DNA of 64,000 nucleotides, taken from assembly GCA_000002445.1 (NCBI GenBank), contig CP000070.1, positions 2,080,001 to 2,144,000 of the forward strand. The letters run 5' to 3'. The notes under the pieces are model-generated. The model worked only from the letters and a program-made list of their open reading frames with translations, made no database searches and had not been told where the DNA came from. The position numbers and the translations under genes were made by a program. Position 1 is the stretch's first letter; every line of letters starts with the position of its first letter. The DNA is from Trypanosoma brucei. Lineage: Eukaryota. Below, piece after piece: positions 4,801 to 50,372 of the stretch.

Positions 4801-5379
4801 TACCTTTGGCTCCTTATTAATCCCTTTTCTCTTTTTGTACACTGCGTACTTTCACCTCGGTGCAATTTTTGCGCTCACCCCTGTACACTGTTGTCCCTTC
4901 CTCAAAAACAGCAAAAGAGAAACAACGCGTCAATAAATGCCCCCACGTTTCAATAAAGTGGGAATAAGGTGAGGTTAACGTACATACACATGACAATACA
5001 TTACAGACATTTACATTCTTCATAAACGCCCTGTATTCAACGGCACATTGATGAGTCAACAAAAAGACTCCAACTGCGGTACAGGTCCTTACGCGACAGC
5101 CATAAAGGAATGCAACGAACACCACAAGTAACACACCACCACTGACCTCTAAAAAAGGGGGGGAAGGGGAAGGAATGTAACACAAGCAAGGAAAAAACTC
5201 GTGCTTGTGATGCAGTAGACAATGCGTGAGAAGCGACTCTGAGGGGAGGGAACGGAAAGGGTGGGGAATGCTAAGAGACAAACAACAGTATATTACAACC
5301 GTTCTCTCAACCAATAAAGGCAATGGCACTCACAACGACGATTGGCTGAAACAACCTGAAGTCTATTCGTCGCTGCAGC

Positions 5380-16400: not shown

Positions 16401-16539
16401 GTTCAAAGGTATGCTCCACGGAGTAGTTTTGCGTGTCATCAGCACCCCGTACAGAACCAACACCGTTAAGGGGACGCGGAAGACCCTTCGCGGCCGGACG
16501 GATGCGGAGGAACACGCGAATACCCTCCGACTTCCCCAT
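13414..16539 (-). CDS. Kinesin-like protein with an N-terminal motor and long coiled-coil, Gln/Gly-rich tail
   Basis: P-loop GQTGSGKTHSITG, switch I SSRSHCVFTIY, switch II DLAGSERVAKTG, neck IRVFLRIRP. The tail is heptad-like and Q-rich. Confidence 0.9.
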   Translation of the reverse strand: MGKSEGIRVFLRIRPAAKGLPRPLNGVGSVRGADDTQNYSVEHTFEHSTVRFHVDRRTDADVVNNTREDFTFTFRRAFEPNATQADVFNTVAKDCVLAALDGYNSTVFAYGQTGSGKTHSITGGAESYEDRGIIPRALALLYEEIARRQQQEGTYSVAISYLQIYNDKGQDLLNRGHDARKLEDLPVVTIHDGGSDSDEVALRGLAQHSAATPKDALNLLFLGDTNRLYCETPMNKTSSRSHCVFTIYLEARPHGASVVRRSKLHFVDLAGSERVAKTGVSGTVLTEAKYINLSLHYLEQVIMALSEQANGRREHVPFRNSFMTMVLRDSLGPNCKTSMLATAHPAVDQLPETISTCRFAQRVALIKQDAHVNEEVDPHVLVRKLKAELQQMRDRLAFYTKDGGGAPDRDLSDDEKLRCEEMVKRFIAATDGNAKLEGFDGDLARIYYCFDVLKRMLAEGGAGVRVGGCGAGSSGGLSEQQQQQLDMYRSRVDALELCVKQKENEMNMLFDALQKVHRAKYNAETQTGADDGESSNYASRTKTAPGTGGSVEGGHAAPFQKPLGHPSNGAHMYASAAAAQQPHGMNVVEAGHSSNAGSIRYDGQDSPQALRRMACERLAPAEVTAVDEFFEKQQQLNEVYDLSSLTDAELLQDRATAFEAFSRSYRQCAQMESNKQELKARYETCKTTARQLNEVVDQIRKLKGCIQRLRAERVLQGVEEVDEAERNALEELAAHKTSYNDLAASLRQQKESIDAMHLFMKRAQEQLTKDFEDWLQIRQKQLIMAVKAGGYKNADSSGSSNGVSIASNTTTMSNNIATPQVNPTTTAAVTTATIPPPTEKAPPTAAAASPGRPTCFKPRLNFLQEQMQSKQQLGEQKPASASMPDLPPLREGLSSRRSWGCDGGMQLRGGLLHTGGLGSAPTHTRASSDTECGRLHHSVPATLSQQSTPNNRLGQPSTMVPLGGSALRNGWTGGSSSGAINDNNGNGYGVTSGISAGGAGLDAPNPYAPEYRSTGDPAADKQLAELYKARDALRLQLDPPQ

Positions 16540-16607
16540 TACGAATCAAAGAAAGATAATGGGGATTAGCGGTAGGGTTTTCTTTTGTTTTTTTTTCTTT
16601 TCCGACA

Positions 16608-16665
16608 CTGAGCGAGTAGACTAGAGAGGGCGAGGGAAAGAGAGGTAGCGGGGAAAAACTCTTAG
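16608..16665 (-). promoter_or_regulatory. Candidate polypyrimidine tract / spliced-leader acceptor region upstream of the kinesin gene
   Basis: The + strand is purine-rich (gagcgagtagactagagagggcgagggaaagagaggtagcggggaaaaactc), so the minus strand is a CT-rich tract 70-125 nt 5' of the ATG at 16539. AG dinucleotides follow it. Confidence 0.4.
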
Positions 16666-17039
16666 CGCTAGGCTGTGCGCAGCGGACCCTGCCAATATAC
16701 ACAAAAATATATAAGAAATACTTCCTAGGTTCACTATCGCGTTTCGCTTTGTTTCTAGTATCCTGTACGACTACTAAATACACGCGTATGTTTATGTGTG
16801 TTGTTATGTCACAAAAGGAAGAGAACGGGGAAAAGAAAAGCAGACAAAGAGGGCATTTAAATAAATAAATATATCTCTTTATTCGCTAGCAAATGATAAG
16901 ATATTGCACTGGTACATGCAGACGCAGCCCACAGACCATTACCGCCATCAAGTGCTCAAAACACACATGTAGTCGCACAATCACTTCACCTCTTTAAAGG
17001 AGACGCCACCTCAGTAACTTCCTTCTTCGCAGCTTCCTC

Positions 17040-17060
17040 ATCATCATCATCATCATCATT
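17040..17060. repeat. (CAT)7 microsatellite in an intergenic/UTR region
   Basis: catcatcatcatcatcatcat. Confidence 0.9.
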
Positions 17061-18060
17061 CATTTGCTGCTGCACCCACTTCACCTCTACCAACAGGTTG
17101 AGTCATTTATTTCATATATTATTAGTTCCCCTAATGCACACAGGTACACAAAAGCTCATTGAGTGTTTCCTTCTTTTCCCTTGACGCCACGGTACCCGCC
17201 ATTTATGTCCACCAGCATCACGTGGGAGTCGAGGGTAAAATAATTATTGACGCCCAGTACGAAATAATGAATGTGAACGTGTTTTCGAGTTTAAACATTT
17301 GGCCCTACAACGGTTAGTAAGATAAACATTTTTCTTCCTAAAGGAAAAAAACCAAAATACAAAACAATAAGGTACAAGGAGGAAGCATAGTGATTACCAG
17401 TTAAGGTCACGGCAATATTACTTTGACTTCCGGTTATTACGCAGTAATCGCTTTCTTCTTTTTCACCATTCATGTGTGTCTGTGGTCCCGACGCAAAAAG
17501 AAAAAAAAGTAGAGTATATTCATAGCAAAGCAGGTAGAGATGCGAGAAATTAAACAATACCGTGCGGTATAATAAGAATCGTGAGCAACGGTAAAAGAAA
17601 AAAAACAAAGGCGAAAAATAGACGACGACGACGACAAAATGATGGGCCATGATAGGAATAGGGTTAAGCAAAAACAACAACAACGACAGTGACATCTCGC
17701 CTGAAAGAGTAGAAGTATCCGCGCAGCATTTATTCTAATCGCACCAAACGCAGGAAAGAAAAACTAGCGGGTGGTGCGGATGTCCACAGAGAACAACACC
17801 AATTTCAACTAAATGCAGACGTAGAAGAAATCTCACATGCTTCCTACCCTATAACAAGTTTTAGGTATTTTTGTGCAGGGTCTCACACCCTCACCCCTCA
17901 ACCACGTTCATTTTTCGCTTGACAATGTACCACATCTATGTGTTTTTCGTGGCGAAAAAAAAGAAAAGAAAAAAAAAGGATCACAAGTTCGGAGAAATAT
18001 TTCCCATGAACGGCCAAATAACACTTGAGACATACAAACCCGCGGCAGTTGCAAGGCCCA

Positions 18061-27200: not shown

Positions 27201-30200
27201 TTAAGTTGTGATGGTGCCATGCGGGGAGCGCTGAGCACACGCCTGCATGAGGGCTGCGAGCACGGAAGGAATCTGAATCTGACGGCACTTTTGCTGTTGG
27301 ATGATGTCGGAGCCGATCGCGGGTGTTGTGCAGTTTGCCTCAGCACAGCTTACGAGAAAAGCCCAGAGCGGCTGTAACACCGCCTCATCAGATTGAAACA
27401 GACTCCGCGCGTGGTTCGTAGCTTGCTTTCCCTCCGTGCGCTGCCGTGTCAGCGATTCCTCACCTTTTGCCCTCCCATTGCGTCCATACGGTCGGCCCTG
27501 GTCACCCCCGCCATCAACATTGCCATCTTCATCACTGTCGTTATATTCTCCATCGTCTTGTTGCAATTCCGGGAACAGATCTTCGGTGTCCGCGTCCGCT
27601 CTCGATCCTGTCAGCTCACACCGGTCCCGTTTCTGCGCCCGGGATTTTTCAGAGGACCATGTGTCAGTCACTGGTGACGCATTTCCCAGCACAAAATCGT
27701 TACCACCACCGCTGCGTTGCTTATTCGTCCCGTCCCCACCGATACTGAAGCCACTTTTATCGCCTTTACGGGAAAGGTGTTGCTGTGCCCTCTGAACAAG
27801 TGCTGACGGAAGCGCTACAAGGGACACCGCCACGCCACTTGCACCTGCGCGACCTGTACGCCCCACACGATGGATATACCTCTGTACCGCCCCCTCTTCA
27901 CCGTCACTTCGACTGGCATTATCACTGCTCAAAGCTTGAACTACGGAGGGCATATCGTAATTTATCACCAACATGACGTTTGGCACGTCCAGACCGCGGG
28001 CTAACAAGTCGGTTGTGATCAATACCCGCCGCCCCCCGCTTCGAAAAGCGTCGACGAGACGCTGCCGCTGCACCTGCGACTGCTCTGAGTGGACGATTGC
28101 CACGGAGCGCAGATTGTCAAAAGGCGATGAGGACTGGCCATGCCGAGGCAACCGCTGAGTCTTGTGTGCCTGAAGTGCTTTCGGTGTCTCACCAACGAGG
28201 GTTTCCAGTGGGAAGGTGTCCGCCAAATTCATGAGCCGTGAAGCCTCAGCACTCAACTCGTTACCTAGGGCATCGCACGTCCGTTTCTCATTGGCAAACA
28301 CCACAATGGGTGGCGTGGCGTACACCAAGTAATTAACAAGACGGGAAAACTTTACAGGGTGTACCAATGGGTTCCTACGCCTCTCACTTACCTGTGGTCC
28401 CCCTTTCCCATTTTTCTTACCTTCCGTTGCCGGAGCTTTTCTTCCATCATCTCCTTTCACTTCCTTATTTCCCTCTTTGTCATGGAACTCCACCGTCGAC
28501 GACGTATCCGGGTCACTCGGCACCACTTCAAACGCTTGCACGATGGTGGAGCAGCTGTGCGGCACACGCACCACGACGTATCCATCGAGTGAAAAATACT
28601 TATTTGCAATCCCCTCGCACACACTACCAAGTGTTGCGGTGAACATGAGAGTTTGCCGCGGCCGCGGACAACGCTCTAACACAGCAATAAGACTCTGTTG
28701 TTGCTGCTGTTCAATGAGCATGCGATCCGCCTCATCCATCACAACGATGCCTACACTTCCAAGTGCCAATAGACGCTGCAGTAGCAATGCCTCGAGCTGT
28801 CCCACAGTTCCGATCACAACATGAGCCCCGGCTAGTAGTTCCTCGTACTGTGCATCTGCCCGCTCGCCCCCAACAATCTTCACAACACGTATTTCATCCA
28901 GTGCATTATATGGTGGGTCGTTGCTCCGCTTCCCTTCAGTGGAAGGCACGACAACGGGGCGCTCGTGCTGCAGCAGCGACTTCATTTCGTTGTCTGGAAT
29001 TCCGCTCACCAACTGTTGTGCCTCTCGCGTTATTTGATCAGCCAACTCACGCGTGGGAACCACCACGAGCGCCAGCGGACCCTGGGATGCAAATCGATCC
29101 TCGTCACATTTCCTAAAAGCGCTGCTGTTACCACCGTCGTCACCTGTCTTCCCGCTGCGGTCACCTTTGAGCCGCGACGGGGGAGACACAATTGTCGCGA
29201 GCAATGGAATGAGGTAAGCAGCTGTTTTCCCGCTTCCCGTCTCAGCTACAGCAAGTACATCGATCCGTCCGCTTCCCAATGGTGGGGATGCGTCAACATC
29301 GACACCAGAAGGTGCCAGGGCTACCGGGACGCACTGCGACTGAATGGGTGTTGGCAGAAGGAATCGCCGAGCCACCACCGTACCAAGTGCCAAAGGCAGA
29401 CGGGCTTCCTCCCAGCAGCGTATGGGTTGTAATGCTTCACCGCTGAAAGCGGTGGCTAAAGAATTTCTAGCACCAGCACCACCGCTGTTGTTGATATTGC
29501 CAGTGACGGAGGAACCGTGGCGGCGGCGAGCCACAACTTCTATGCGAATGCCTATCTGTTGACGGAAGACGTCCCACCCAGTAGATGTCATCGCCTTTAG
29601 TGGTCGTTTGCTCCAATGCAAACCGACTTGTACTTCTTGACGGAACATGTTTTCTTCGGTACTCCCTTTACTAACGGTGTTGCTGCCGCTGCTGCTGCTG
29701 CAGTGGCGTTCCTCGCCATAACCTCCGTGAATGGCTGTCGGCACCGAGGAAGTAATTGTTTTACCACTCATTCCAGTGCCTGACTGCAGCTGGGATTGCT
29801 GCTGTCGACGAAGTTTGCGAAGAAGAAGAGGGTCACGCGGAATTACACCCCTACGCGCCGCTGCTGCCGGTACGCCTGCGGTTTCCAGCAGTGTTGTCGA
29901 TACCTTTACGGCAGGTGTCGCATTTGTCCCCGCCACGGCAGATGTTTTTCCCTCGTTATTCCTTCCTTCGCGGCCAATATTGTGAGGATGCGGCCCGTCA
30001 CCATCGTTGCTCTTACGGGCAGCCTCTTCTCGTGCGTAGTTAACCACTGCCCTGTAAATGGCTGAGTTCTCAATGACTGAAGGAGGCATTAATGAATTTT
30101 GTGAGTGTTTTCCCTCCCCGCATCCGAGTGCGACAGGAAGAAGTTGCTTCTCCACCAGGTGAAGGAATGCTATATTTACATCACCTGTTGGACCGTCGTA

Positions 30201-30314
30201 CGACCTGACTGCAGGACTGGCGCCGCCAGTATTATTGTTGCATGCGTTCATGCCGCTTGTTTTATTTTTTCTTGTGCTTGGGCTTGTGCGGAGGGTTGAT
30301 AACGGGATTAACAA
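27201..30314 (-). CDS. DEAD-box ATP-dependent RNA helicase, 1037 aa, with long N- and C-terminal extensions
   Basis: Motif I AETGSGKTAAYLIPLL, Ia PTRELA, II VMDEADRML, III MFTATL, VI HRVGRTGRAG. Confidence 0.9.
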   Translation of the reverse strand: MLIPLSTLRTSPSTRKNKTSGMNACNNNTGGASPAVRSYDGPTGDVNIAFLHLVEKQLLPVALGCGEGKHSQNSLMPPSVIENSAIYRAVVNYAREEAARKSNDGDGPHPHNIGREGRNNEGKTSAVAGTNATPAVKVSTTLLETAGVPAAAARRGVIPRDPLLLRKLRRQQQSQLQSGTGMSGKTITSSVPTAIHGGYGEERHCSSSSGSNTVSKGSTEENMFRQEVQVGLHWSKRPLKAMTSTGWDVFRQQIGIRIEVVARRRHGSSVTGNINNSGGAGARNSLATAFSGEALQPIRCWEEARLPLALGTVVARRFLLPTPIQSQCVPVALAPSGVDVDASPPLGSGRIDVLAVAETGSGKTAAYLIPLLATIVSPPSRLKGDRSGKTGDDGGNSSAFRKCDEDRFASQGPLALVVVPTRELADQITREAQQLVSGIPDNEMKSLLQHERPVVVPSTEGKRSNDPPYNALDEIRVVKIVGGERADAQYEELLAGAHVVIGTVGQLEALLLQRLLALGSVGIVVMDEADRMLIEQQQQQSLIAVLERCPRPRQTLMFTATLGSVCEGIANKYFSLDGYVVVRVPHSCSTIVQAFEVVPSDPDTSSTVEFHDKEGNKEVKGDDGRKAPATEGKKNGKGGPQVSERRRNPLVHPVKFSRLVNYLVYATPPIVVFANEKRTCDALGNELSAEASRLMNLADTFPLETLVGETPKALQAHKTQRLPRHGQSSSPFDNLRSVAIVHSEQSQVQRQRLVDAFRSGGRRVLITTDLLARGLDVPNVMLVINYDMPSVVQALSSDNASRSDGEEGAVQRYIHRVGRTGRAGASGVAVSLVALPSALVQRAQQHLSRKGDKSGFSIGGDGTNKQRSGGGNDFVLGNASPVTDTWSSEKSRAQKRDRCELTGSRADADTEDLFPELQQDDGEYNDSDEDGNVDGGGDQGRPYGRNGRAKGEESLTRQRTEGKQATNHARSLFQSDEAVLQPLWAFLVSCAEANCTTPAIGSDIIQQQKCRQIQIPSVLAALMQACAQRSPHGTITT

Positions 30315-32739
30315 AAAAAAAAAGAAAGAGCAACCATATCACAGCGCACTAACAAGACAAACATCCCGAAAGAGAAAATGTGTGAAACACGTTTAGCGGG
30401 CCACAGTTCAGTTCCACTGCAATGGCAGTGTGGAAAGTGGTCAAGACATTCAGGTAAGGCAGGAGGAGTGTAGGTGGAAGAAGAAGAAGTGAATGTCAAC
30501 AAACAGGGGCAATTAACGAACAACTGAACTGAAAGAAGAAATGAAAAAAAAAAATGCGTACCTTCCAGTCCGCTCACGGAACTGCCATTAGGAAGCAGAC
30601 AAAAATCAAAAAAGGAAACAACCACCCGAAGACACACACACACACAAAAGATGTCATTTCCCACCAAACAAACGGCCCTTTTCTCGTGTGACGGCTGGAG
30701 TTGCACGACCCTTTGACCGAAGTGGGAGTGCAGAGCCGCTAAACATGCGCAGGTGACGGCGGACCGTCTGCTTACCCACTTGATAATATGTATATCATGT
30801 ACCCTCTTCATTCCCTTGTAATAAATAATATCAAAAATAATAATAATATAAAACAAGAAACGCTGAATATTCCTTATTTTTTTTCCTCTTTCGCTGCGCT
30901 TCCCACAGCACGAGGAAAGCAAGAGAGAAATAAAGCGTACCAACAACAACAACAAAAAGCCCTTTTGCATCGAGCCGGTCGGAGGCGCCAGCAGCAACTT
31001 ATTTTCCCTCTTCCTCTTCCTCTTCTTACGATCTCGCCTCTGTGCTAGCCACCGCCCATTCCCTTTTGCGAAAAAAGAAAAACAATTATCGTTTGCCCAC
31101 TTTGCTTATCACATTTTTTTTTTTGCTTCCCCAACCTCTTCCACAATTTTGGCTGCTTCGTTTTCGTTCCCTCTGCTGTAACCAGAGAAGAGGGAAACAA
31201 ATACACAAATAATAACAGTTAAACGCCCGCATGCCATAATCAAGCCATATACAAACCAGTCACGGGTGAAGAAAAAGGTAGACAAACGACAACATCTTCA
31301 CATGACCAGTGACATTTAGGAGCACCAGCAGAACAAAGAGAAAAAGGTTAAAATTGACATAAATACAAAAAAAAAACTACAACAACAAAAAACAGCACAA
31401 CACCAACACCAAAGAAGGGGAAGGGGAAGGGTAGCAATGTGGAAAGAGTCCCAATAGACACGCCCGTAATATAAAGCAGGAAGACGGTCCACAATGCAGA
31501 TGTGCGGCTATCGCATATATATATATATATATGTAATGCATACATCTACACATACATATGTCGGAAGAATGTAAGCAAAGTTGGAAGATATAGGGTAGAA
31601 AGACCGCTTCCAGGCTGTCAGCCACTAGTTTATGCACATGCACACGCAGCAAATTTTCAGAGAGAAGGTAGAAACCCGTTGATGAGGGGCTAAACGTGTT
31701 AGGGTAACGGAAGATCACGCCAAGTGTCGTAAAGCGCTGAAAGAAAAAATAAGAATCTGGAGCTTTACAGTTCAAAGTGGTCCCAGCCTACTTTTAATAT
31801 GCCGCAACCGACCGTCACGGTCGAGTTTCCACAACATCACCACCATCCATAAACTCTCCGTTTTTTTCTTTGCTTCTTGTTACCCGCTCCTTTTCTTATT
31901 CTTCTCATCATATCGGTTTGAATTCCCAACACATCCCCCTTTGACGCCATGTAAGTTATTTCTTTTTTTTATACTTCAAGCACCCGCGTCTCTCCCCCCT
32001 CCATTTTCCTTTTTTCCCTTCTTTCACATCTTTGGGCGTGCACGACGCGACCTCAGTGACACGCAAAAAAAAAAAAAGGCAAAAACTTCCAGCATATCTC
32101 ATAACAACATGCGTATGGACAAGCAAGAGGACGAGCTAAATTCGACTCTCCCCCTCCCACCTCTCAAAAAAAAAAAAAACACTAAACACTACACAAATAC
32201 AATCATATAAGCACGTAACCACACATAAATAAATAAATATATTTATGTTCATGTGAATATAAGTAATAACAGCGTAACAAAAAATGAATAAGTGTGCGCA
32301 ACCGAGGTGGAAAATGGGGGGGGGGTTGTACACCGTAGAAAATGAGCATCCTACCTCTTGAAAGAGAGTGTGACACCGCTTTTCGTCTCCCTGTTTTTAT
32401 AAATGCAAACGCTGCACGACCCCCTTGTCTGCGATTCCCGTTCGCACTAACAGCTTTGGGTCCCTGCAGCTATGATGAGGTCTTTGCTTATTCCCTCTAT
32501 GTGCAAGCTCTATAGTTCCACTTCGACTTCTCACTGCTTCTTCGCGCTTTCTCTCTCTCTCTCTATCTCGTTCTCCTCTTTTAAAGACCCTCTATCTTTA
32601 CGCATGTGTATGTGTGCGGTACGCCTGCCCCCATTTTTTAAAAATAACTTCTATTATTTCTGTTTCCTCCTTTTCACCGCTCTTACCTCTCTCTATTTGT
32701 ACCCATCTCGGTGGACATATGTGATCAGCGCTCCGAACG

Positions 32740-43778: not shown

Positions 43779-46700
43779 TTATCGCACTTCGGAAAGTGAC
43801 GCAACCCACTTGGCGGCATCCCCTACCATCTCCTCCAACAGATTTTCAAGAGCATGACCTAACACCAACTGCGTGATTCCTGCACGGCGACTGTCCATGC
43901 CGAGTGTACCGGCACGACTTCCTGCATAGCACGGCGATCCCAGAGACCTTTGAGTCCCAGAATTCCCCAGACCATCTTCTCCACCTACCGCCAAAAGCGA
44001 TGCAGACGCTGAAGATGATAAGGCCCCATTACCGTCGTTACGCTCGAAAAGATTCTCGCGCAACCGCGCCTCACAGTAAAAGTCCTCCGCATTGTTGGTG
44101 CCCTTGCGCACCAGCTCTGTATAATGGTATGCAAGAAATCGAATATCACTGGGTTGTAGCCTCCCAAAGAGGCACTGTGGGGAGACGAGGCCAGCCGACC
44201 GCGACAGAGCCTCCTCTGAGGATAGAAAGGCTTCCTCATACCAAACGAACTCGTCCAGTCGCTGCAACTTCTCCCTTGAGGCCACTGTGATATAGTCGGA
44301 GGCTAGCCTTTCAGCCAAAGCACTGAGGCCCGCACGCCATTCTCCGGACAGCCCCCCCTCCCCCATCGCCGCAGCGGCAACCGAAATAATACTTTGGCTT
44401 AAAGTGCTCTCAATTGTTGAATAGGAAAGCAGACCGGGATGCGCTAAAGCCTCCAATGCCGTCCCCGCTCCCTCTACCAAGTAGTTGATAACAGAATCTA
44501 CCATGAACGCAGTGAACCGCTTCTCACAATTTCCAGCGTGCGCACTATACAGCAAAGAGGGGTCTGAAGGCGTAACCGTACCACTGTGCTCACCTTGCTT
44601 TTCAACCAAACGATTGGCACCACCCTCAGCAATAGACAACTCTACCACTGAATATATAGAAGGTGACTCACTAGAACCACTGATTACGCAATCAACAGAC
44701 GCAACACCAGCACCATTTAATTCGCCGACACAACTAAGCGTACCCTGGGTACCACAGTCGGGGCTTGGCAATGCACAGCTTCCGTACAACGTAGAGCTCC
44801 CGCCATAATAAAACTCAGAAGTTCCGGAAGAACAAACATCGTTATTAATCAGCATAGCAACGGTACTTATTCCGCTCGACAACACGTATTCCGTCACAGC
44901 CTCAGCAGCACCAACACAAGCTTCACCTCCACGAAAAGTATCCAGCAACGACATAGACATCACAGATTCCAACTCACCGCTATAGGCCACATCATCAACG
45001 ACACAACCAAAGCTACAAACGCCACCACAACAAACAGATGTAGCATCTTCGAAGCACTCTGATATCAAATTTACACACAAAGAACGCAAGCAATCAATAA
45101 TAAAAAGCTTATCACCAAACACTGCCGCCCCTTCACCATCAACCCCCAACTGTTCATCCTCTTCAGCCTTGAGACGAGATTCCTCTTCAGCCTTGAAACG
45201 AGCTTCCTCTTCAGCCTTGAGACGAGCTTCCTCTTCAGCCTTGAGACGAGCTTCCTCTTCAGCCTTGAAACGAGCTTCCTCTTCGGCCTTGAGACGAGCT
45301 TCCTCTTCAGCCTTGAAACGAGCTTCCTCTTCAGCCTTGAGACGAGCTTCCTCTTCAGCCTTGAAACGAGCTTCCTCTTCAGCCTTGAGACGAGCTTCCT
45401 CTTCAGCTTCTAGACGGGCGTCTTCCATTGCACGCGCACTGGCAATATGCCGTGAGAAGGCATCATTAAGGCTTTGCCTTATTATGTCGTCAGAGAGGGC
45501 TCTCACACGATCGATAATGTGTTCTTTACCTTCTAAGAGAGTAACAGCCTCTTCTTCAGCCTTGAGACGAGCTTCCTCTTCAGCCTTGAAACGAGCTTCC
45601 TCTTCAGCCTTGAGACGAGCTTCCTCTTCAGCCTTGACACGAGCCTCCTCTTCAGTTTTGAGACGAGCTTCCTCTTCAGCCTTGAAACGAGCTTCCTCTT
45701 CAGCCTTGAGACGAGCTTCCTCTTCAGCTTCTAGACGGGCGTCTTCCATTGCACGCGCACTGGCAATATGCCGTGAGAAGGCATCATTAAGGCTTTGCCT
45801 TATTATGTCGTCAGAGAGGGCTCTCACAAGATCGATAATGTGTTCTTTACCTTCTAAGAGAGTAACAGCCTCTTCTTCAGCCTTGACACGAGCCTCCTCT
45901 TCAGCCTTGAGACGAGCTTCCTCTTCAGCCTTGAAACGAGCTTCCTCTTCAGCCTTGAGACGAGCTTCCTCTTCAGCCTTGAAACGAGCTTCCTCTTCAG
46001 CCTTGAGACGAGCTTCCTCTTCAGCCTTGAAACGAGCTTCCTCTTCAGCCTTGACACGAGCTTCCTCTTCAGCCTTGAAACGAGCTTCCTCTTCAGCCTT
46101 GAAACGAGCTTCCTCTTCAGCTTCTAGACGGGCGTCTTCCATTGCACGCGCACTGGCAATATGCCGTGAGAAGGCATCATTAAGGCTTTGCCTTATTATG
46201 TCGTCAGAGAGGGCTCTCACACGATCGATAATGTGTTCTTTACCTTCTAAGAGAGTAACAGCCCCTTCTTCAGCCTTGACACGAGCTTCCTCTTCAGCCT
46301 TGAAACGAGCTTCCTCTTCAGCCTTGACACGAGCTTCCTCTTCAGCCTTGAAACGAGCTTCCTCTTCAGCCTTGAGACGAGCCTCCTCTTCAGCCTTGAG
46401 ACGAGCTTCCTCTTCAGCCTTGAGACGAGCTTCCTCTTCAGCCTTGACACGAGCTTCCTCTTCAGCTTCTAGACGGGCGTCTTCCATTGCACGCGCACTG
46501 GCAATATGCCGTGAGAAGGCATCATTAAGGCTTTGCCTTATTATGTCGTCAGAGAGGGCTCTCACACGATCGATAATGTGTTCTTTACCTTCTAAGAGAG
46601 TAACAGCCTCTTCTTCAGCCTTGACACGAGCCTCCTCTTCAGCCTTGAAACGAGCTTCCTCTTCAGCCTTGAAACGAGCTTCCTCTTCAGCCTTGAAACG

Positions 46701-49700
46701 AGCTTCCTCTTCAGCCTTGAGACGAGCTTCCTCTTCAGCCTTGAGACGAGCTTCCTCTTCAGCCTTGAGACGAGCTTCCTCTTCAGCCTTGAAACGAGCC
46801 TCTTCTTCAGCCTTGACACGAGCCTCCTCTTCAGTTTTGAGACGAGCTTCCTCTTCAGCCTTGAAACGAGCTTCCTCTTCAGCTTCTAGACGGGCGTCTT
46901 CCATTGCACGCGCACTGGCAATATGCCGTGAGAAGGCATCATTAAGGCTTTGCCTTATTATGTCGTCAGAGAGGGCTCTCACACGATCGATAATGTGTTC
47001 TTTACCTTCTAAGAGAGTAACAGCCCCTTCTTCAGCCTTGACACGAGCTTCCTCTTCAGCCTTGAAACGAGCTTCCTCTTCAGCCTTGACACGAGCTTCC
47101 TCTTCAGCCTTGAAACGAGCTTCCTCTTCAGCCTTGAGACGAGCTTCCTCTTCAGCCTTGAGACGAGCTTCCTCTTCAGCCTTGAAACGAGCTTCCTCTT
47201 CAGCTTCTAGACGGGCGTCTTCCATTGCACGCGCACTGGCAATATGCCGTGAGAAGGCATCATTAAGGCTTTGCCTTATTATGTCGTCAGAGAGGGCTCT
47301 CACACGATCGATAATGTGTTCTTTACCTTCTAAGAGAGTAACAGCCTCTTCTTCAGCCTTGACACGAGCTTCCTCTTCAGCCTTGAAACGAGCTTCCTCT
47401 TCAGCCTTGAGACGAGCTTCCTCTTCAGCCTTGAGACGAGATTCCTCTTCAGCCTTGAGACGAGCTTCCTCTTCAGCCTTGAAACGAGCTTCCTCTTCAG
47501 CCTTGAGACGAGCTTCCTCTTCAGCCTTGAGACGAGCTTCCTCTTCAGCTTCTAGACGGGCGTCTTCCATTGCACGCGCACTGGCAATATGCCGTGAGAA
47601 GGCATCATTAAGGCTTTGCCTTATTATGTCGTCAGAGAGGGCTCTCACACGATCGATAATGTGTTGTTTACCTTCTAAGAGAGTAACAGCCTCTTCTTCG
47701 GCCTTGAGACGAGCTTCCTCTTCAGCCTTGAGACGAGCTTCCTCTTCAGCCTTGAAACGAGCTTCCTCTTCAGCCTTGAAACGAGCTTCCTCTTCAGCCT
47801 TGAGACGAGATTCCTCTTCAGCCTTGAGACGAGCTTCCTCTTCAGCCTTGAGACGAGCTTCCTCTTCAGCCTTGAGACGAGCTTCCTCTTCAGCCTTGAG
47901 ACGAGATTCCTCTTCAGCCTTGAGACGAGCTTCCTCTTCAGCCTTGAGACGAGCTTCCTCTTCAGCCTTGAGACGAGCTTCCTCTTCAGCTTCTAGACGG
48001 GCGTCTTCCATTGCACGCGCACTGGCAATATGCCGTGAGAAGGCATCATTAAGGCTTTGCCTTATTATGTCGTCAGAGAGGGCTCTCACACGATCGATAA
48101 TGTGTTCTTTACCTTCTAAGAGAGTAACAGCCTCTTCTTCAGCCTTGACACGAGCTTCCTCTTCAGCTTTGATTCGTGCCTCTTCTTCAGCTTTGATTCG
48201 TGCCTCTTCTTCAGCTTTGATTCGTGCCTCTTCTTCAGCTTTGATTCGTGCCTCTTCTTCAGCTTTGATTCGTGCCTCTTCTTCAGCTCTGATTCGTGCC
48301 TCTTCTTCAGCTTTGATTCGTGCCTCTTCTTCAGCTCTGAGTCTCGCCTCTTCTTCAGCTCTGAGTCTCGCCTCTTCTTCAGCTTTGATTCGTGCCTCTT
48401 CTTCAGCTTTGATTCGTGCCTCTTCTTCAGCTCTGATTCGTGCCTCTTCTTCAGCTCTGATTCGTGCCTCTTCTTCAGCTCTGAGTCTCGCCTCTTCTTC
48501 AGCTCTGACTCTCGCCTCTTCTTCAGCTTTGAGTCTCGCCTCTTCTTCAGCTCTGATTCGTGCCTCTTCTTCAGCTTTGATTCGTGCCTCTTCTTCAGCT
48601 CTGATTCGTGCCTCTTCTTCAGCTCTGATTCGTGCCTCTTCTTCAGCTCTGAGTCTCGCCTCTTCTTCAGCTCTGACTCTCGCCTCTTCTTCAGCTCTGA
48701 GTCTCGCCTCTTCTTCAGTTCTGAGTCTCGCCTCTTCTTCAGCTTTGATTCGTGCCTCTTCTTCAGCTTTGATTCGTGCCTCTTCTTCAGCTCTGAGTCT
48801 CGCCTCTTCTTCAGCTCTGACTCTCGCCTCTTCTTCAGCTCTGAGTCTCGCCTCTTCTTCAGCTCTGAGTCTCGCCTCTTCTTCAGCTCTGAGTCTCGCC
48901 TCTTCTTCAGCTTTGATTCGTGCCTCTTCTTCAGCTCTGATTCGTGCCTCTTCTTCAGCTCTGATTCGTGCCTCTTCTTCAGCTTTGATTCGTGCCTCTT
49001 CTTCAGCTCTGATTCGTGCCTCTTCTTCAGCTCTGATTCGTGCCTCTTCTTCAGCTCTGAGTCTCGCCTCTTCTTCGAGAGATGGAGCGTGTTGAGAGGC
49101 GTGAATCGTAATTTCCTTTTGTTTTGTGTATGCGTGCTGTGCTGTGGGGTAGTTTGTTTCAATCCGTGAGGTAGTGTGAGTTTGTTTTCGTTCGATTTCC
49201 GTTCGATCGCTAAAATTTTGGCTTTGTGTTTTAGAGCTGTAACTTTTTTCTTCAAAATGTTTTGTTGGTTCGTGTGTTTCTTTTGCTTGTATAGCGAGGG
49301 TTTGTGTTGCTTTGTTTTCTGTTGGTGCCGGGTTTGTGTTTTGTATACTTTGAGTATGTCTTGTGATTGTCGTTCTTTCAGCAGCTGGTTGTCGCGTTAT
49401 GAGCGAGATGGTGTTGAAAGCAGACGGAGCTTCTGTATTGATATTGTTGTGGTTGTTACTTTTCTTGTAGTGTTTGTGTGCTTGTTCATCGTACTTGTTG
49501 TGCCGCTGCTCGTGGATTACTTTTTTCTGTGCGTCTTGTATTATACTTGATGAAAAGCAGTGACTTGTCTCTAGGTTATTACCAATCCCTGTACTTCGAG
49601 GTGGGCACCATGGGTCTGTGAATAGTTTGTTGCTTTGCTGTGACAACTGCACCGACTCTCTTGCTTTGTCTGCTTGTTGCAGCCCGTGGGGACCACTTAC

Positions 49701-50372
49701 TTTTCCTGCTGATGTTGGTTGGTGGTGCAGATGTGCGCTCACATGTTGTGCTGATAGCAAGACTAGTATTTTTTCCTCTCGGAAGGAGGCTGCAATGATA
49801 AGACGCTTCTTCTCGTACTTGTGAACTATCTCGCGGCGGGTGTGTGCTTCAGCTAAGACGACTGCGAACATCGCGGATGAGTGTTTTCGTGTCTCATAAT
49901 CGTCGGAAAGCAGTGATGTTGGAGGCCTTGTGACAGAATCCCCCCTTTTTTGGTATTCCTTCGAGGACCGAGTACCCGCTATGGGGTGCTGTTCTGACAC
50001 AAAACCTGGACCTAGTTGACATCCAGTGTATGCCCGCAGTGTCGGTTGTGTGGTCTCCGTTTGGACGTCATGGCTGCTACTCCGATGGGGCTGTTGAGCG
50101 GTCGTGGTTTTGGTGTCCCGCTTCCTCTTTGAACTGGATATTGGTTCTTCAGCCGCAGCGGCACATGTCCTATCGTGGTTTCCAAGGAACGCTTTCTGCG
50201 CCTCCCTTAATCTATGAATCTCTTCTTTTAGTCCATTAAGCTCCACACGGCTTCCTCCTTCTTTTTTGAGGCGCCTAAACTCTTCTATGAGCCACCCAGT
50301 CCGCTGTATATCTTCCAAGACCGCCAACGCATTAATGCGCACGACCGCCTTATCGCGGTGGGGTGGTGGCAT
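43779..50372 (-). CDS. Giant repeat protein (2197 aa): unique N- and C-domains flanking a predicted ER/K single-alpha-helix array and ~8 larger composite repeats
   Basis: Uninterrupted minus-strand ORF. A central EEEAR[LIFV][KR]A octad is repeated >100 times. Embedded ~45-aa modules read VTLLEGKEHIIDRVRALSDDIIRQSLNDAFSRHIASARAMEDARLE. The C-domain is Cys-rich. Confidence 0.8.
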   Translation of the reverse strand: MPPPHRDKAVVRINALAVLEDIQRTGWLIEEFRRLKKEGGSRVELNGLKEEIHRLREAQKAFLGNHDRTCAAAAEEPISSSKRKRDTKTTTAQQPHRSSSHDVQTETTQPTLRAYTGCQLGPGFVSEQHPIAGTRSSKEYQKRGDSVTRPPTSLLSDDYETRKHSSAMFAVVLAEAHTRREIVHKYEKKRLIIAASFREEKILVLLSAQHVSAHLHHQPTSAGKVSGPHGLQQADKARESVQLSQQSNKLFTDPWCPPRSTGIGNNLETSHCFSSSIIQDAQKKVIHEQRHNKYDEQAHKHYKKSNNHNNINTEAPSAFNTISLITRQPAAERTTITRHTQSIQNTNPAPTENKATQTLAIQAKETHEPTKHFEEKSYSSKTQSQNFSDRTEIERKQTHTTSRIETNYPTAQHAYTKQKEITIHASQHAPSLEEEARLRAEEEARIRAEEEARIRAEEEARIKAEEEARIRAEEEARIRAEEEARIKAEEEARLRAEEEARLRAEEEARLRAEEEARVRAEEEARLRAEEEARIKAEEEARIKAEEEARLRTEEEARLRAEEEARVRAEEEARLRAEEEARIRAEEEARIRAEEEARIKAEEEARIRAEEEARLKAEEEARVRAEEEARLRAEEEARIRAEEEARIRAEEEARIKAEEEARIKAEEEARLRAEEEARLRAEEEARIKAEEEARIRAEEEARIKAEEEARIKAEEEARIKAEEEARIKAEEEARIKAEEEARVKAEEEAVTLLEGKEHIIDRVRALSDDIIRQSLNDAFSRHIASARAMEDARLEAEEEARLKAEEEARLKAEEEARLKAEEESRLKAEEEARLKAEEEARLKAEEEARLKAEEESRLKAEEEARFKAEEEARFKAEEEARLKAEEEARLKAEEEAVTLLEGKQHIIDRVRALSDDIIRQSLNDAFSRHIASARAMEDARLEAEEEARLKAEEEARLKAEEEARFKAEEEARLKAEEESRLKAEEEARLKAEEEARFKAEEEARVKAEEEAVTLLEGKEHIIDRVRALSDDIIRQSLNDAFSRHIASARAMEDARLEAEEEARFKAEEEARLKAEEEARLKAEEEARFKAEEEARVKAEEEARFKAEEEARVKAEEGAVTLLEGKEHIIDRVRALSDDIIRQSLNDAFSRHIASARAMEDARLEAEEEARFKAEEEARLKTEEEARVKAEEEARFKAEEEARLKAEEEARLKAEEEARLKAEEEARFKAEEEARFKAEEEARFKAEEEARVKAEEEAVTLLEGKEHIIDRVRALSDDIIRQSLNDAFSRHIASARAMEDARLEAEEEARVKAEEEARLKAEEEARLKAEEEARLKAEEEARFKAEEEARVKAEEEARFKAEEEARVKAEEGAVTLLEGKEHIIDRVRALSDDIIRQSLNDAFSRHIASARAMEDARLEAEEEARFKAEEEARFKAEEEARVKAEEEARFKAEEEARLKAEEEARFKAEEEARLKAEEEARFKAEEEARLKAEEEARVKAEEEAVTLLEGKEHIIDLVRALSDDIIRQSLNDAFSRHIASARAMEDARLEAEEEARLKAEEEARFKAEEEARLKTEEEARVKAEEEARLKAEEEARFKAEEEARLKAEEEAVTLLEGKEHIIDRVRALSDDIIRQSLNDAFSRHIASARAMEDARLEAEEEARLKAEEEARFKAEEEARLKAEEEARFKAEEEARLKAEEEARFKAEEEARLKAEEEARLKAEEEARFKAEEESRLKAEEDEQLGVDGEGAAVFGDKLFIIDCLRSLCVNLISECFEDATSVCCGGVCSFGCVVDDVAYSGELESVMSMSLLDTFRGGEACVGAAEAVTEYVLSSGISTVAMLINNDVCSSGTSEFYYGGSSTLYGSCALPSPDCGTQGTLSCVGELNGAGVASVDCVISGSSESPSIYSVVELSIAEGGANRLVEKQGEHSGTVTPSDPSLLYSAHAGNCEKRFTAFMVDSVINYLVEGAGTALEALAHPGLLSYSTIESTLSQSIISVAAAAMGEGGLSGEWRAGLSALAERLASDYITVASREKLQRLDEFVWYEEAFLSSEEALSRSAGLVSPQCLFGRLQPSDIRFLAYHYTELVRKGTNNAEDFYCEARLRENLFERNDGNGALSSSASASLLAVGGEDGLGNSGTQRSLGSPCYAGSRAGTLGMDSRRAGITQLVLGHALENLLEEMVGDAAKWVASLSEVR
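45170..48150. repeat. About 8 composite tandem units of 320-442 bp, each a ~135-bp unique module plus a variable number of 24-bp octad sub-repeats
   Basis: The block gcttctagacgggcgtcttccattgcacgcgcactggcaatatgccgtgagaaggcatc... recurs at ~45408, 45728, 46120, 46468, 46882, 47203, 47548 and 47990. Confidence 0.85.
48150..49080. repeat. Near-perfect 24-bp tandem array (~38 units) encoding (EEEAR[IL][RK]A)n
   Basis: Variants gattcgtgcctcttcttcagcttt/ctct, gagtctcgcctcttcttcagctct and gactctcgcctcttcttcagctct repeat head-to-tail. Confidence 0.9.

What the first reader, a model, noticed from the sequence alone, without database searches (positions are those of the whole stretch)
43779..50372. 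Giant protein built around a predicted ER/K single-alpha-helix of ~900 residues
The central ~0.9-1 kb of protein is almost purely EEEAR[LIFV][KR]A octads. In a helix this puts E1/R5 and E3/K7 at i,i+4 spacing, the salt-bridge pattern of stable single alpha-helix (SAH/ER-K) domains. With hydrophobic residues only at positions 4 and 6 and an 8-residue period, it is not a heptad coiled coil. At 0.15 nm per residue it would form a rigid rod longer than 100 nm linking the unique N-domain to a Cys-rich C-domain. The octad array is interrupted about 8 times by a conserved ~45-aa module (VTLLEGKEHIIDRVRALSDDIIRQSLNDAFSRHIASARAMEDARLE). The C-domain opens with a degenerate copy of that module (AAVFGDKLFIIDCLRSLCVNLISECFEDATS), which suggests the array grew by unequal crossing-over from a C-terminal seed. 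A molecular ruler or tether, for example in the cytoskeleton or flagellum attachment zone, is a reasonable hypothesis.
Basis: partly seen in the sequence, partly recalled or inferred. Interest (0 to 1): 0.65.

Follow-up and report, generated by a model that had tools for sequence, protein, structure and literature searches.

The report
Basal-body protein with giant charged-helix repeats
The ORF is the already named Trypanosoma brucei basal-body protein TbBBP248, and its huge repeat region is best read as nine charged single-helix spacer segments separated by eight near-identical amphipathic modules, a reading I did not find published but which is unproven and whose repeat number differs between genome assemblies.

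Summary
ORF 43779-50372 (-) encodes 2197 aa and holds 112 EEEAR[LIFV][KR]A octads and eight 51-aa modules.

The window is T. brucei TREU927 chromosome 7. The protein (247,993 Da) is Tb927.7.7400, or TbBBP248. N- and C-terminal tags both place it at the basal body. It has been annotated as "9 x coiled coil; 12 x Cornifin".

My analysis favours single alpha-helix (SAH) segments over coiled coil:
- six i+3/i+4 ion pairs per octad;
- no 3.5-residue hydrophobic periodicity;
- no Pro or Gly in 896 octad residues;
- AlphaFold2 gives one unbroken helix.

Two sub-arrays encode the same peptide with different codons, so the peptide itself is under selection.

- It is not one ~900-residue helix. It is nine ER/K blocks (312 aa, then 56-96 aa) separated by non-ER/K modules.
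- With a ~15 nm persistence length it would be a semi-flexible tether, not a rigid rod.
- It sits at the basal body, not the flagellum attachment zone.

The module is ancestral: it occurs in T. cruzi, T. rangeli, T. grayi and T. theileri. T. b. gambiense has 143 octads with different spacing, so the copy number is unverified.

It is a new candidate member of a known structural class, inside an already known protein.

The parts
43779..50372 (-). Complete CDS of TbBBP248 (Tb927.7.7400): 2197 aa, 247,993 Da, stop codon included
   Evidence: ORF. The mass of 247,993 Da matches the 248.0 kDa listed for Tb927.7.7400/TbBBP248 in the Dang 2017 supplement. Neighbouring genes are exact matches to TREU927 chromosome 7 proteins.
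49077..50372 (-). N-domain, aa 1-432. Basic (pI 9.55). Mostly T/S/Q/H-rich low complexity apart from two conserved motifs.
50187..50327 (-). Conserved N-terminal motif 1, aa ~16-62 (VLEDIQRTGWLIEEFRRLKKEGGSRVEL...LREAQ)
   Evidence: Conserved from T. brucei to Leishmania and an unnamed kinetoplastid sequence.
49758..49877 (-). Conserved N-terminal motif 2, aa ~166-205 (FAVVLAEAHTRREI...FREEKI)
   Evidence: Near-invariant LAEAHxRxEI core in seven orthologues.
48141..49076 (-). ER/K array A: 39 uninterrupted octads EEEAR[LIV][RK]A, aa 433-744. 312 aa, contour about 47 nm if helical.
   Evidence: codon family GAA GAA GAG GCR MGA NTC ARA GCT; SAH-like score 0.36
45165..48140 (-). Array B: eight 51-aa modules alternating with eight ER/K blocks of 12, 8, 7, 11, 8, 10, 7 and 10 octads EEEAR[LFV]KA, aa 745-1736
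   Evidence: codon family GAA GAG GAA GCT CGT NTC AAG GCT. AlphaFold2 gives an unbroken helix for aa 721-966.
47988..48140 (-). Module 1, aa 745-795
47547..47699 (-). Module 2, aa 892-942 (E to Q variant)
47202..47354 (-). Module 3, aa 1007-1057
46881..47033 (-). Module 4, aa 1114-1164 (EEGA variant)
46464..46616 (-). Module 5, aa 1253-1303
46119..46271 (-). Module 6, aa 1368-1418 (EEGA variant)
45726..45878 (-). Module 7, aa 1499-1549 (R to L variant)
45405..45557 (-). Module 8, aa 1606-1656
45036..45134 (-). Divergent ninth module at the start of the C-domain, aa 1747-1779 (EGAAVFGDKLFIIDCLRSLCVNLISECFEDATS)
   Evidence: 11/33 identities in register; score 41 vs shuffles 26.2 +/- 4.1. It resembles the T. 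cruzi module (LISEC/FLSEC; score 30, reached by 11 of 300 shuffles).
44538..45035 (-). Cys/Ser/Gly-rich linker, aa 1780-1945. Poorly conserved and of low AlphaFold2 confidence.
   Evidence: pLDDT <50; 13 Cys in aa 1737-1945; poorly aligned among orthologues
43782..44537 (-). Conserved all-helical C-terminal domain, aa 1946-2197, ending in RRAG[IL]TQLVLGHALENLLEE. This is the family signature.
   Evidence: Invariant columns. The profile finds orthologues across Trypanosomatidae. AlphaFold2 pLDDT is 70-94. No match in PDB by fold or by sequence.

Best explanation
The ORF encodes TbBBP248, a trypanosomatid-specific basal-body protein built as an elongated, segmented scaffold.

- **Ends.** Short conserved helical motifs at the N-terminus and a conserved ~250-aa helical domain at the C-terminus are the likely attachment sites. 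Tags at either end both localise to the basal body (shown in the literature).
- **Spacers.** Between the ends lie nine ER/K blocks. Each most likely forms a stable single alpha-helix held by E-to-R/K i+4 and i+3 salt bridges. The blocks would act as semi-flexible spacers of about 47 nm (array A) and 8-14 nm (the later blocks).
- **Modules.** The blocks are punctuated by eight near-identical amphipathic helical modules, plus one divergent copy. These are not SAH-like and probably bind a partner or each other (inferred).
- **Dimensions.** The fully helical contour would be about 196 nm. With a persistence length of about 15 nm the free molecule would span roughly 60-75 nm rms. It would therefore behave as an extensible tether or spacer near the proximal end of the mature basal body, not as a rigid ruler.
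- **Evolution.** The repeats expanded and are homogenised by unequal crossing-over, while selection keeps the peptide.
For: **Identity and location**
- Neighbouring genes are exact TREU927 chromosome 7 proteins.
- The mass of 247,993 Da equals the 248.0 kDa listed for TbBBP248/Tb927.7.7400, described as 'Between pBB and mBB'.
- The N-terminal Ty1 tag gives a basal-body signal, and the protein is a TbPLK BioID hit.
- RNAi knockdown is over-represented among cells with >4C DNA content.

**SAH reading**
- The octads are 62.5% charged and contain no Pro or Gly in 896 residues. They carry six opposite-charge i+3/i+4 pairs per eight residues.
GCN4 scores 0.06 and tropomyosin 0.12. Hydrophobic Fourier power at period 3.5 is 0.00, and the hydrophobic moment is about 0.02.
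- A Waggawagga-style score with my own weights is 0.36, above that tool's default cut-off of 0.25. It yields exactly nine segments, matching the published '9 x CC'.
- AlphaFold2 on aa 721-966 gives a single helix over residues 2-245 with mean pLDDT 86.8.

**Selection on the peptide**
- Arrays A and B use different codons for the same octad. Five of six consensus differences are synonymous (P = 0.0026).
- T. congolense has the identical EEEARLKA octad.
- ER/K character persists in T. grayi (period 10) and T. theileri (period 8-10).

**Conserved ends and module**
-.

**Precedent**
- p197 is a basal-body spacer with near-identical helical repeats only in T. brucei.
Against: - No experiment on this sequence shows that it is monomeric or helical.
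- The charged fraction (62.5%) is below the roughly 80% typical of SAHs (PMC5812594).
- A designed repeat with 57% charge, AEEAKKA, is helical but dimerises, and it scores 0.49 on my metric. The score therefore cannot separate an SAH from an Ala-seam dimer.
- Every fourth residue is Ala, which makes a continuous i+4 Ala stripe. A large hydrophobic residue recurs every eight residues.
- The AlphaFold2 run used a single sequence and a single chain, so it cannot test oligomerisation.
- The eight exposed amphipathic modules make an unpartnered single helix unlikely along the whole length.
- Both termini localise to the basal body at light-microscope resolution, so an extended conformation has not been demonstrated.
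- Leishmania and Phytomonas orthologues have no ER/K arrays at all. The array is therefore not essential to the family's core function.
Confidence: 0.55

Rival explanations
1. The helical region is not monomeric. The amphipathic modules, and possibly the Ala stripe and Arg-rich faces of the octads, drive parallel or antiparallel dimers, staggered bundles or a meshwork. The protein would then be a filament- or lattice-forming structural component around the basal body rather than a single-molecule SAH tether.
For: - The modules are amphipathic (18-residue hydrophobic moment up to 0.51), conserved across Trypanosoma, and score near zero as SAH.
- Identical modules could pair out of register.
- AEEAKKA dimerises and Arg-rich AEEEXXX repeats aggregate.
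- Array A is Arg-rich: in 24 of its 39 octads position 7 is Arg as well as position 5.
- p197 filaments are thicker than one helix.
Against: - The octads have no 3.5- or 3.67-residue hydrophobic periodicity.
- An i+4 stripe has periodicity 4.0, which by standard helix-packing geometry cannot sustain a long supercoil (my inference).
- The net charge of -1 per octad (-112 over the octads) opposes lateral packing.
- The best heptad a/d occupancy of the module is only 0.54-0.56, against 0.80 for GCN4.
- AlphaFold2 did not fold two modules onto each other within one chain.
Confidence: 0.25
2. The array is a weakly constrained, rapidly evolving low-complexity polyampholyte with no defined structural role. 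Such tandem repeats are common in trypanosomatid proteins, and it would be carried along by replication slippage and unequal crossing-over. Only the conserved N- and C-terminal parts would matter.
For: - Leishmania and Phytomonas orthologues lack ER/K arrays.
- Octad number and spacing differ between TREU927 (112) and T. b. gambiense (143).
- The repeat period differs between species.
Against: - Five of six consensus differences between the two sub-arrays are synonymous (P = 0.0026).
- T. congolense has the identical octad, although its N-domain is only 41% identical.
- No helix breaker occurs in 896 residues.
- ER/K character is retained in four Trypanosoma lineages.
- The module count of eight is the same in two assemblies.
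Confidence: 0.1
3. The array is real, but the numbers given for it (112 octads, eight modules, 2197 aa, 248 kDa) are partly an assembly product. The true protein may be longer or arranged differently.
For: - DAL972 has a frameshift inside module 6. Stitched across it, the protein is 2444 aa with blocks of 33|14|36|2|14|15|21|7|1 octads.
- The T. b. equiperdum IVM-t1 chromosome assembly ends inside the array.
- T. equiperdum OVI contigs break on both sides of it.
- p197 was under-assembled about three-fold for the same reason.
Against: - Variant units (S4, T8, EEGA, Q and L variants) give unique landmarks within the TREU927 array.
- Both assemblies agree on eight modules.
- No read-level data are available here.
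Confidence: 0.4

Closest known systems
ER/K or SAH (stable single alpha-helix) domains, e.g. myosin-6, myosin-10, INCENP, the CAF-1 KER region, and de novo AEEEKKK/AEEEKRK repeats
   Same: - E/R/K-rich sequence with dense i to i+4 and i+3 opposite-charge pairs and networks.
- No hydrophobic seam.
- Previously labelled 'coiled coil' by standard predictors, as is typical for SAHs (PMC5347031).
- Links two other protein parts.
- Rotated by one residue, the octad reads AEEEARLK, close to the designed AEEEKRK.
   Different: - A perfect octad period, repeated 112 times. Natural SAHs are reported as highly variable, and E4(K/R)4 octad patterns as extremely rare and not repeated (PMC5812594).
- Charge fraction 62.5% rather than about 80%.
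- Two Ala and one large hydrophobic residue per unit.
- Blocks of up to 312 aa, against the usual 40 to ~200 aa.
- Interrupted by non-SAH modules.
- Monomeric state untested.
p197 (Tb927.10.15750), the exclusion-zone-filament spacer of the T. brucei tripartite attachment complex
   Same: - Basal-body-anchored giant protein with conserved termini and a long alpha-helical centre.
- Near-identical tandem repeats in T. brucei that are absent from orthologues in other kinetoplastids.
- Repeats that confound assembly.
- Also a TbPLK BioID hit.
   Different: - No sequence homology was found.
- p197 repeats are 175 aa, not octads plus modules.
- p197's spacer role and end-to-end orientation were shown by doubly tagged expansion microscopy. 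Nothing comparable exists for BBP248.
- BBP248 localises between or around the pro-basal body (pBB) and mature basal body (mBB), and no tripartite attachment complex role is known.
Trypanosomatid orthologues annotated 'kinetoplast DNA-associated protein' (Trypanosoma) or 'kinetoplast-associated protein-like protein' (Leishmania, e.g. L. major XP_001687530.1, 2061 aa)
   Same: - They share the conserved C-terminal helical domain (profile E-values 1e-190 to 1e-10).
- They share both N-terminal motifs.
- Leishmania proteins have a similar overall length (2061-2121 aa).
- Trypanosoma orthologues share the module and the ER/K spacers.
   Different: - Leishmania, Leptomonas and Phytomonas members have no ER/K array, and module-like motifs match only weakly (independent E-values 0.07-0.8).
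- The 'kinetoplast' name is not backed by T. brucei localisation data.
- The same label is also used for unrelated genes: KAP6 and LinKAP, LINF_270007500, 660 aa.
Cornifin/SPRR (PF02389) and DUF2345 / phage gp5 C-terminal repeats (PF10106, PF22178), the Pfam hits
   Same: From my own knowledge rather than any test here, these families are also built on eight-residue repeats, which would explain why the profiles fire (E = 1.7e-52 and 7.5e-21).
   Different: The octads contain no Pro, Gln or Cys, unlike the Pro/Gln/Cys-rich cornifin repeats (my knowledge), and no Gly, unlike the Gly-containing gp5 beta-helix repeats (my knowledge). I treat the hits as periodicity and low-complexity artefacts, not homology.

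Membership tests
SAH / ER/K single alpha-helix domain | Sequence dominated by E, K and R (typically up to ~80%) with helix-favouring residues and no helix breakers | tested here: met
   The octads are 62.5% E/R/K plus 25% Ala, with 0 Pro/Gly in 896 residues. This is at the low end of the reported range.
SAH / ER/K single alpha-helix domain | Dense opposite-charge pairs at i,i+4 and i,i+3, and charge networks, giving a predictor score above threshold | tested here: met
   There are six pairs per octad. A Waggawagga-style score with my own weights is 0.36, above the 0.25 cut-off, in nine segments totalling 851 aa. The original program and its scoring matrices were not available.
SAH / ER/K single alpha-helix domain | No hydrophobic seam (heptad or hendecad a/d pattern) | tested here: met
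   Fourier power at periods 3.5 and 3.67 is 0.00-0.02. Hydrophobic moment is 0.02. Successive position-6 residues rotate by 80 degrees.
SAH / ER/K single alpha-helix domain | Monomeric, highly helical in solution, non-cooperative thermal melting, salt- and pH-tolerant | not testable with these tools
   This needs CD, AUC or SEC-MALS. AlphaFold2 on a single chain gives an unbroken helix, which is supportive only. AEEAKKA, of similar charge density, dimerises.
Canonical coiled coil (the published annotation '9 x CC') | Heptad (3.5) or related periodicity of hydrophobic a/d residues over the helix | tested here: not met
   Octad blocks have zero power at 3.5, and the best a/d occupancy is 0.43 against 0.80 for GCN4. 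Modules reach 0.54-0.56, which is weak.
TbBBP248 / trypanosomatid 'kinetoplast(-DNA)-associated protein(-like)' family | Conserved C-terminal helical domain ending in RRAGxTQLVLxHALxNxLE | tested here: met
   Alignment A1 shows the invariant columns. The profile retrieves 24 proteins, all of them trypanosomatid where a name is given.
TbBBP248 / trypanosomatid 'kinetoplast(-DNA)-associated protein(-like)' family | Conserved N-terminal motifs (LxxIxxTxxLxxxxRxLK...; FAxxLAEAHxRxEI) | tested here: met
   Aligned in T. brucei, T. congolense, T. grayi, three Leishmania species and one unnamed sequence.
TbBBP248 / trypanosomatid 'kinetoplast(-DNA)-associated protein(-like)' family | Identity with Tb927.7.7400 (locus and mass) | tested here: met
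   The gene lies between CRK2 and the oxidoreductase / ATP synthase alpha genes of TREU927 chromosome 7. The mass is 247,993 Da against a published 248.0 kDa. The exact protein sequence was not in the protein collection, so identity rests on position and mass.
AKAP-type amphipathic helix (docking site for RIIa/DPY30 dimerisation domains), considered for the module | Consensus [AVLISE]xx[AVLIF][AVLI]xx[AVLI][AVLIF]xx[AVLISE] (recalled from the literature, not checked here) | tested here: not met
There is no Pfam RII-binding hit.
Cornifin/SPRR | Pro/Gln/Cys-rich octapeptide repeats (feature recalled from my own knowledge) | tested here: not met
   The Pfam hit is E = 1.7e-52. The octad variants listed contain no Pro, Gln or Cys. 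I treat the hit as an artefact of the eight-residue period.
Molecular ruler or spacer of the p197 kind (functional class, not a homology family) | The two termini sit at different structures, and the distance scales with the length of the central region | not testable with these tools
   N- and C-terminal tags both give a basal-body signal at light-microscope resolution. No doubly tagged expansion microscopy or length variants exist.

The most novel reading that the evidence does not exclude
TbBBP248 is a natural 'beads-on-a-rod' single-helix scaffold. Nine true SAH segments would include the longest contiguous natural SAH so far (312 aa or more). They would hold eight identical docking helices at intervals of about 16-22 nm of helical contour (TREU927 assembly). 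[quoted passage not shown] That would make it a second p197-like spacer, built on a different structural principle.
Probability: 0.25. Interest if true: 0.65.

Novelty: new member of a known kind. Interest (0 to 1): 0.42.

Why it matters
If the octad arrays are true single alpha-helices, TbBBP248 would be an extreme natural example of the class. It would have a perfectly periodic octad, up to 312 contiguous residues, and about 900 residues in total. This would occur in a cell structure, the trypanosome basal body, where distances between parts are known to be set by single giant helical proteins such as p197.

It would correct the published '9 coiled coils + cornifin' annotation. It would also give a concrete, testable model for a basal-body protein whose knockdown perturbs ploidy: anchored ends, spring-like spacers, and repeated docking modules.

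The near-identical repeats and their variation between T. b. brucei and T. b. gambiense also bear on how reliable the 248 kDa size is. The practical importance is moderate, because the protein, its location and the SAH class are all already known.

Tried and rejected
- **AKAP-like docking helix for the module.** It looked similar by eye, but the recalled consensus is not met in any species while the control peptides match. There is no Pfam RII-binding hit. Rejected.
- **Pfam Cornifin, DUF2345 and Gp5_C hits.** Rejected as artefacts of the eight-residue period.
- **Third homologue search, using module + octads + start of the C-domain.** It was swamped by bacterial TolA-like low-complexity proteins and gave nothing usable.
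- **C-terminal domain.** The Foldseek search against PDB gave a best E-value of 0.17, and the profile search against PDB sequences found only a chance hit. The module profile against PDB found nothing. The afdb50 library was unavailable.
- **BLASTP of the module against the start of the C-domain.** It found nothing. The similarity shows only in an ungapped score compared with shuffles.
- **PDB sequence search with the octads.** It returned only compositionally similar charged helices (a Legionella effector, eL29, a designed 'HeliScrew'). Not informative.
- **Exact-sequence look-up of the full protein.** It failed, and neither terminal-domain search returned the TREU927 protein itself. Identity therefore rests on synteny and mass.
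- **The 1990 T. cruzi 'KAP' paper (PubMed 1694571).** This may be the source of the 'kinetoplast' name, but it is not held.
- **Last literature search.** It was wasted on a noisy term.
- **LinKAP (LINF_270007500).** It shares the annotation label, but it is a 660-aa chromosome 27 gene. I did not establish any relation to this family.
- **Microtubule-lattice ruler.** A 7-octad block plus a module is 107 aa, or 16 nm. I considered this and set it aside because spacing varies from 7 to 12 octads here and from 2 to 36 in DAL972.

Full report
**What is there**

The ORF 43779..50372 on the minus strand is open and encodes 2197 aa. Parsing the protein gives four parts:
- an N-domain (aa 1-432);
- 112 octads of the form EEEAR[LIFV][KR]A, with rare S4, T8 or G3 variants, in nine blocks of 39, 12, 8, 7, 11, 8, 10, 7 and 10 octads;
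- eight copies of a 51-aa unit that separate the blocks: EEEAVTLLEGKEHIIDRVRALSDDIIRQSLNDAFSRHIASARAMEDARLEA;
- a 461-aa C-domain (aa 1737-2197).

Tandem Repeats Finder confirms two 24-nt arrays and higher-order periods of 321-417 nt with up to 97% identity. The eight modules differ by 0-2 nt over 153 nt. Two ORFs that overlap it are by-products of a stop-free repeat: 45169..49095 (+) and 48116..49255 (-).

**Whose gene it is**

Seven neighbouring ORFs are exact matches to Trypanosoma brucei brucei TREU927 chromosome 7 proteins. They include CRK2, an oxidoreductase, ATP synthase alpha, a nucleolar GTPase and a kinesin.

The predicted mass is 247,993 Da. The Dang et al. 2017 supplement lists Tb927.7.7400 as TbBBP248, 248.0 kDa, '9 x CC; 12 x Cornifin', localised 'Between pBB and mBB', that is between the pro-basal body and the mature basal body. 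It was found by TbPOC11 and TbBBP46 BioID.

What the literature shows about it:
- McAllaster et al. 2015 found it as a TbPLK BioID hit. They localised an N-terminal Ty1 fusion to the basal body (PMC4551316).
- A genome-wide RNAi screen lists it among knockdowns enriched in cells with >4C DNA content (PMC9464253).

The protein is thus real, expressed from the annotated ends, and already named. I found no paper that calls it a single alpha-helix protein.

**Is the octad array an SAH?**

Each octad gives four i,i+4 opposite-charge pairs (E1-R5, E3-K7, R5-E1', K7-E3') and two i,i+3 pairs (E2-R5, K7-E2'). The pairs form continuous E-R-E-R and E-K-E-K ladders. The 896 octad residues contain no Pro or Gly and carry a net charge of -112.

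| Measure | Octad arrays | Controls |
|---|---|---|
| Hydrophobic Fourier power at period 3.5 or 3.67 | 0.00-0.02 | tropomyosin 1.59; GCN4 1.43 (at 3.5) |
| Hydrophobic moment | about 0.02 | GCN4 0.35 |
| Waggawagga-style score, own weights | 0.36 | that tool's default cut-off 0.25; modules about 0.03 |

The position-6 residue rotates by 80 degrees per repeat. The Waggawagga-style score follows the published description of the algorithm (PMC5812594), but the original matrices were unavailable. It yields exactly nine segments, which explains the published '9 x CC'. AlphaFold2, run on a single sequence covering aa 721-966 (two modules with 12 octads between them), gives one unbroken helix with mean pLDDT 86.8.

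**Evidence that the peptide, not only the DNA repeat, is selected**

- Array A (aa 433-744) and array B (aa 745-1736) encode the same octad with different codon families. A uses GAA GAA GAG GCR MGA NTC ARA GCT. B uses GAA GAG GAA GCT CGT NTC AAG GCT. Five of the six consensus differences are synonymous, where 22% would be expected (P = 0.0026).
- T. congolense carries the identical EEEARLKA octad, although its N-domain is only 41% identical.
- T. grayi uses a 10-residue unit and T. theileri uses 8-10-residue units, and both still score as SAH-like.

A changing period with conserved charge pattern fits an SAH better than a geometry-dependent coiled coil.

**Cautions on the SAH reading**

- SAHs are reported to have a persistence length of about 15 nm and typical lengths of 40 to ~200 residues (PMC5347031).
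- The contour here would be 47 nm for array A, 134 nm for all the octads, and 196 nm for aa 433-1736.
- A worm-like chain with a 15 nm persistence length gives rms end-to-end distances of only 31, 60 and 74 nm for those three lengths. 'Rigid rod >100 nm' is therefore overstated.
- The charge fraction (62.5%) is lower than typical.
- AEEAKKA (57% charged) is helical but dimerises, and Arg-rich AEEEXXX repeats aggregate. AEEAKKA scores 0.49 on my metric, so the score cannot prove a monomer.
- The i+4 Ala stripe has periodicity 4.0. By standard helix-packing geometry (my inference) this does not allow a long supercoil, but it could allow local contacts.

**The modules**

- They are amphipathic (hydrophobic moment up to 0.51) and are predicted helical with pLDDT above 90. 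They are not SAH-like and are only weakly heptad-like.
- They are not peculiar to T. brucei. Homologous modules sit between ER/K repeats in T. cruzi, T. grayi and T. theileri, the last with at least three non-identical copies.
- An HMM built from these modules finds an independent copy in T. rangeli (independent E-value 2.9e-6) and weak motif matches in Leishmaniinae.
- The stretch at the start of the C-domain (aa 1747-1779) aligns in register with the module. It has 11/33 identities and a score of 41, against 26.2 +/- 4.1 for shuffles. It resembles the T. cruzi module at LISEC/FLSEC.
- I read this stretch as a ninth, unhomogenised edge copy of an ancestral multi-module architecture. A 'seed' origin is possible but not required.
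- I tested and rejected an AKAP-type docking helix.

**The ends and the family**

The C-domain has two parts:
- a Cys/Ser/Gly-rich, poorly conserved, low-confidence linker (aa ~1780-1945, 13 Cys in aa 1737-1945);
- a conserved all-helical domain (aa 1946-2197, pLDDT 70-94). It has no detectable relative in PDB by fold or by sequence.

A profile of this domain retrieves 24 proteins, all of them trypanosomatid where a name is given. They include 2061-2121-aa Leishmania 'kinetoplast-associated protein-like proteins' as well as Leptomonas and Phytomonas proteins. These share two N-terminal motifs with TbBBP248, at aa ~16-62 and ~166-205. They have no ER/K arrays. The ER/K expansion is therefore a Trypanosoma elaboration of an older family with conserved ends. 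p197 shows the same pattern (PMC9546609).

**Copy number**

- In T. b. gambiense DAL972 the orthologue has one frameshift inside module 6. Stitched across it, the protein is 2444 aa with 143 octads, eight modules, and blocks of 33|14|36|2|14|15|21|7|1 octads.
- The T. b. equiperdum IVM-t1 chromosome assembly ends inside the array, where the last blocks read 9|9|3.
- T. equiperdum OVI contigs break on both sides of the array.

The module number agrees between two assemblies. The spacing and octad number do not. This argues against a precise ruler, and it leaves the 248 kDa size unverified.

**Verdict**

The best-supported reading (about 0.55) is a basal-body scaffold made of nine single-helix ER/K spacers, eight or nine amphipathic docking or association modules, and conserved anchoring ends. 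It would act as a semi-flexible tether.

What is shown:
- the sequence anatomy;
- the identity of the protein, and its location from the literature;
- selection on the peptide;
- conservation of the ends and of the module.

What is inferred:
- the monomeric helical state;
- the spacer function;
- what the modules bind.

The main rival (about 0.25) is lateral self-association into dimers or bundles. This is a new candidate member of a known structural class, inside an already known protein, and of moderate interest.

Noticed in passing
window 45169-49095 (+) and 48116-49255 (-): Two long ORFs overlap the repeat array: a 1308-aa antisense ORF of RASSSAL-type repeats, and a 379-aa out-of-frame ORF of KKRHESEL-type repeats. 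They exist only because the 24-nt unit has no stop codon in those frames. They are not genes.
   Followed up: partly
L002:875-8208 (T. b. gambiense DAL972 chromosome 7, FN554970.1): The orthologue is called as a 2443-aa product but has a frameshift inside the sixth module, at about nt 4863-4938 of the gene. Part of an array-A-like segment appears twice. The cause is either a sequencing or assembly error, or a real disruption.
   Followed up: partly
L003:1-2758 (T. b. equiperdum IVM-t1, CM010678.1), L001 and L004 (T. equiperdum OVI contigs): One chromosome-level assembly ends inside this gene's repeat array. A second assembly has contig breaks on both sides of it. The locus is a recurrent point of assembly failure.
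   Followed up: partly
window 43779-50372 (-), Pfam scan: The strong Pfam hits (Cornifin E = 1.7e-52, DUF2345 E = 7.5e-21, gp5 C-terminal weak) are all to families that, from my own knowledge, are built on eight-residue repeats. The published '12 x Cornifin' annotation of TbBBP248 would therefore be a periodicity artefact.
   Followed up: yes
literature / Leishmania LINF_270007500: The label 'kinetoplast(-DNA)-associated protein(-like)' is attached to at least three different things: this family, KAP6, and the 660-aa repetitive mitochondrial antigen LinKAP. Name-based transfer of function or localisation between them is unsafe. Whether LinKAP's E/R/K repeats are related to this family was not resolved.
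   Followed up: partly
whole window 1-64000: All but one of the ORFs of at least 250 aa that do not overlap the repeat array lie on the minus strand, which is what a single trypanosomatid polycistronic transcription unit would look like. GC skew is negative throughout. Two 2-kb bins have lower GC content (16001-18000 at 0.451; 30001-32000 at 0.438).
   Followed up: no
window 49077-49720 (-), aa ~218-432: The stretch just before the repeats is a T/S/Q/H/N/K-rich, basic, low-complexity region. It aligns poorly with orthologues and is probably disordered. The whole N-domain has pI 9.55, against 4.3-4.8 for the rest of the protein.
   Followed up: no
one search hits (bacterial metagenome proteins): Many bacterial TolA-, MotB- and LysM-linked proteins carry E/A/K/R-rich helical linkers. 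These are similar enough in composition to outscore true homologues in a word-seeded search. This is a reminder that ER/K-like spacers recur widely, and that E-values for them are not evidence of homology.
   Followed up: no
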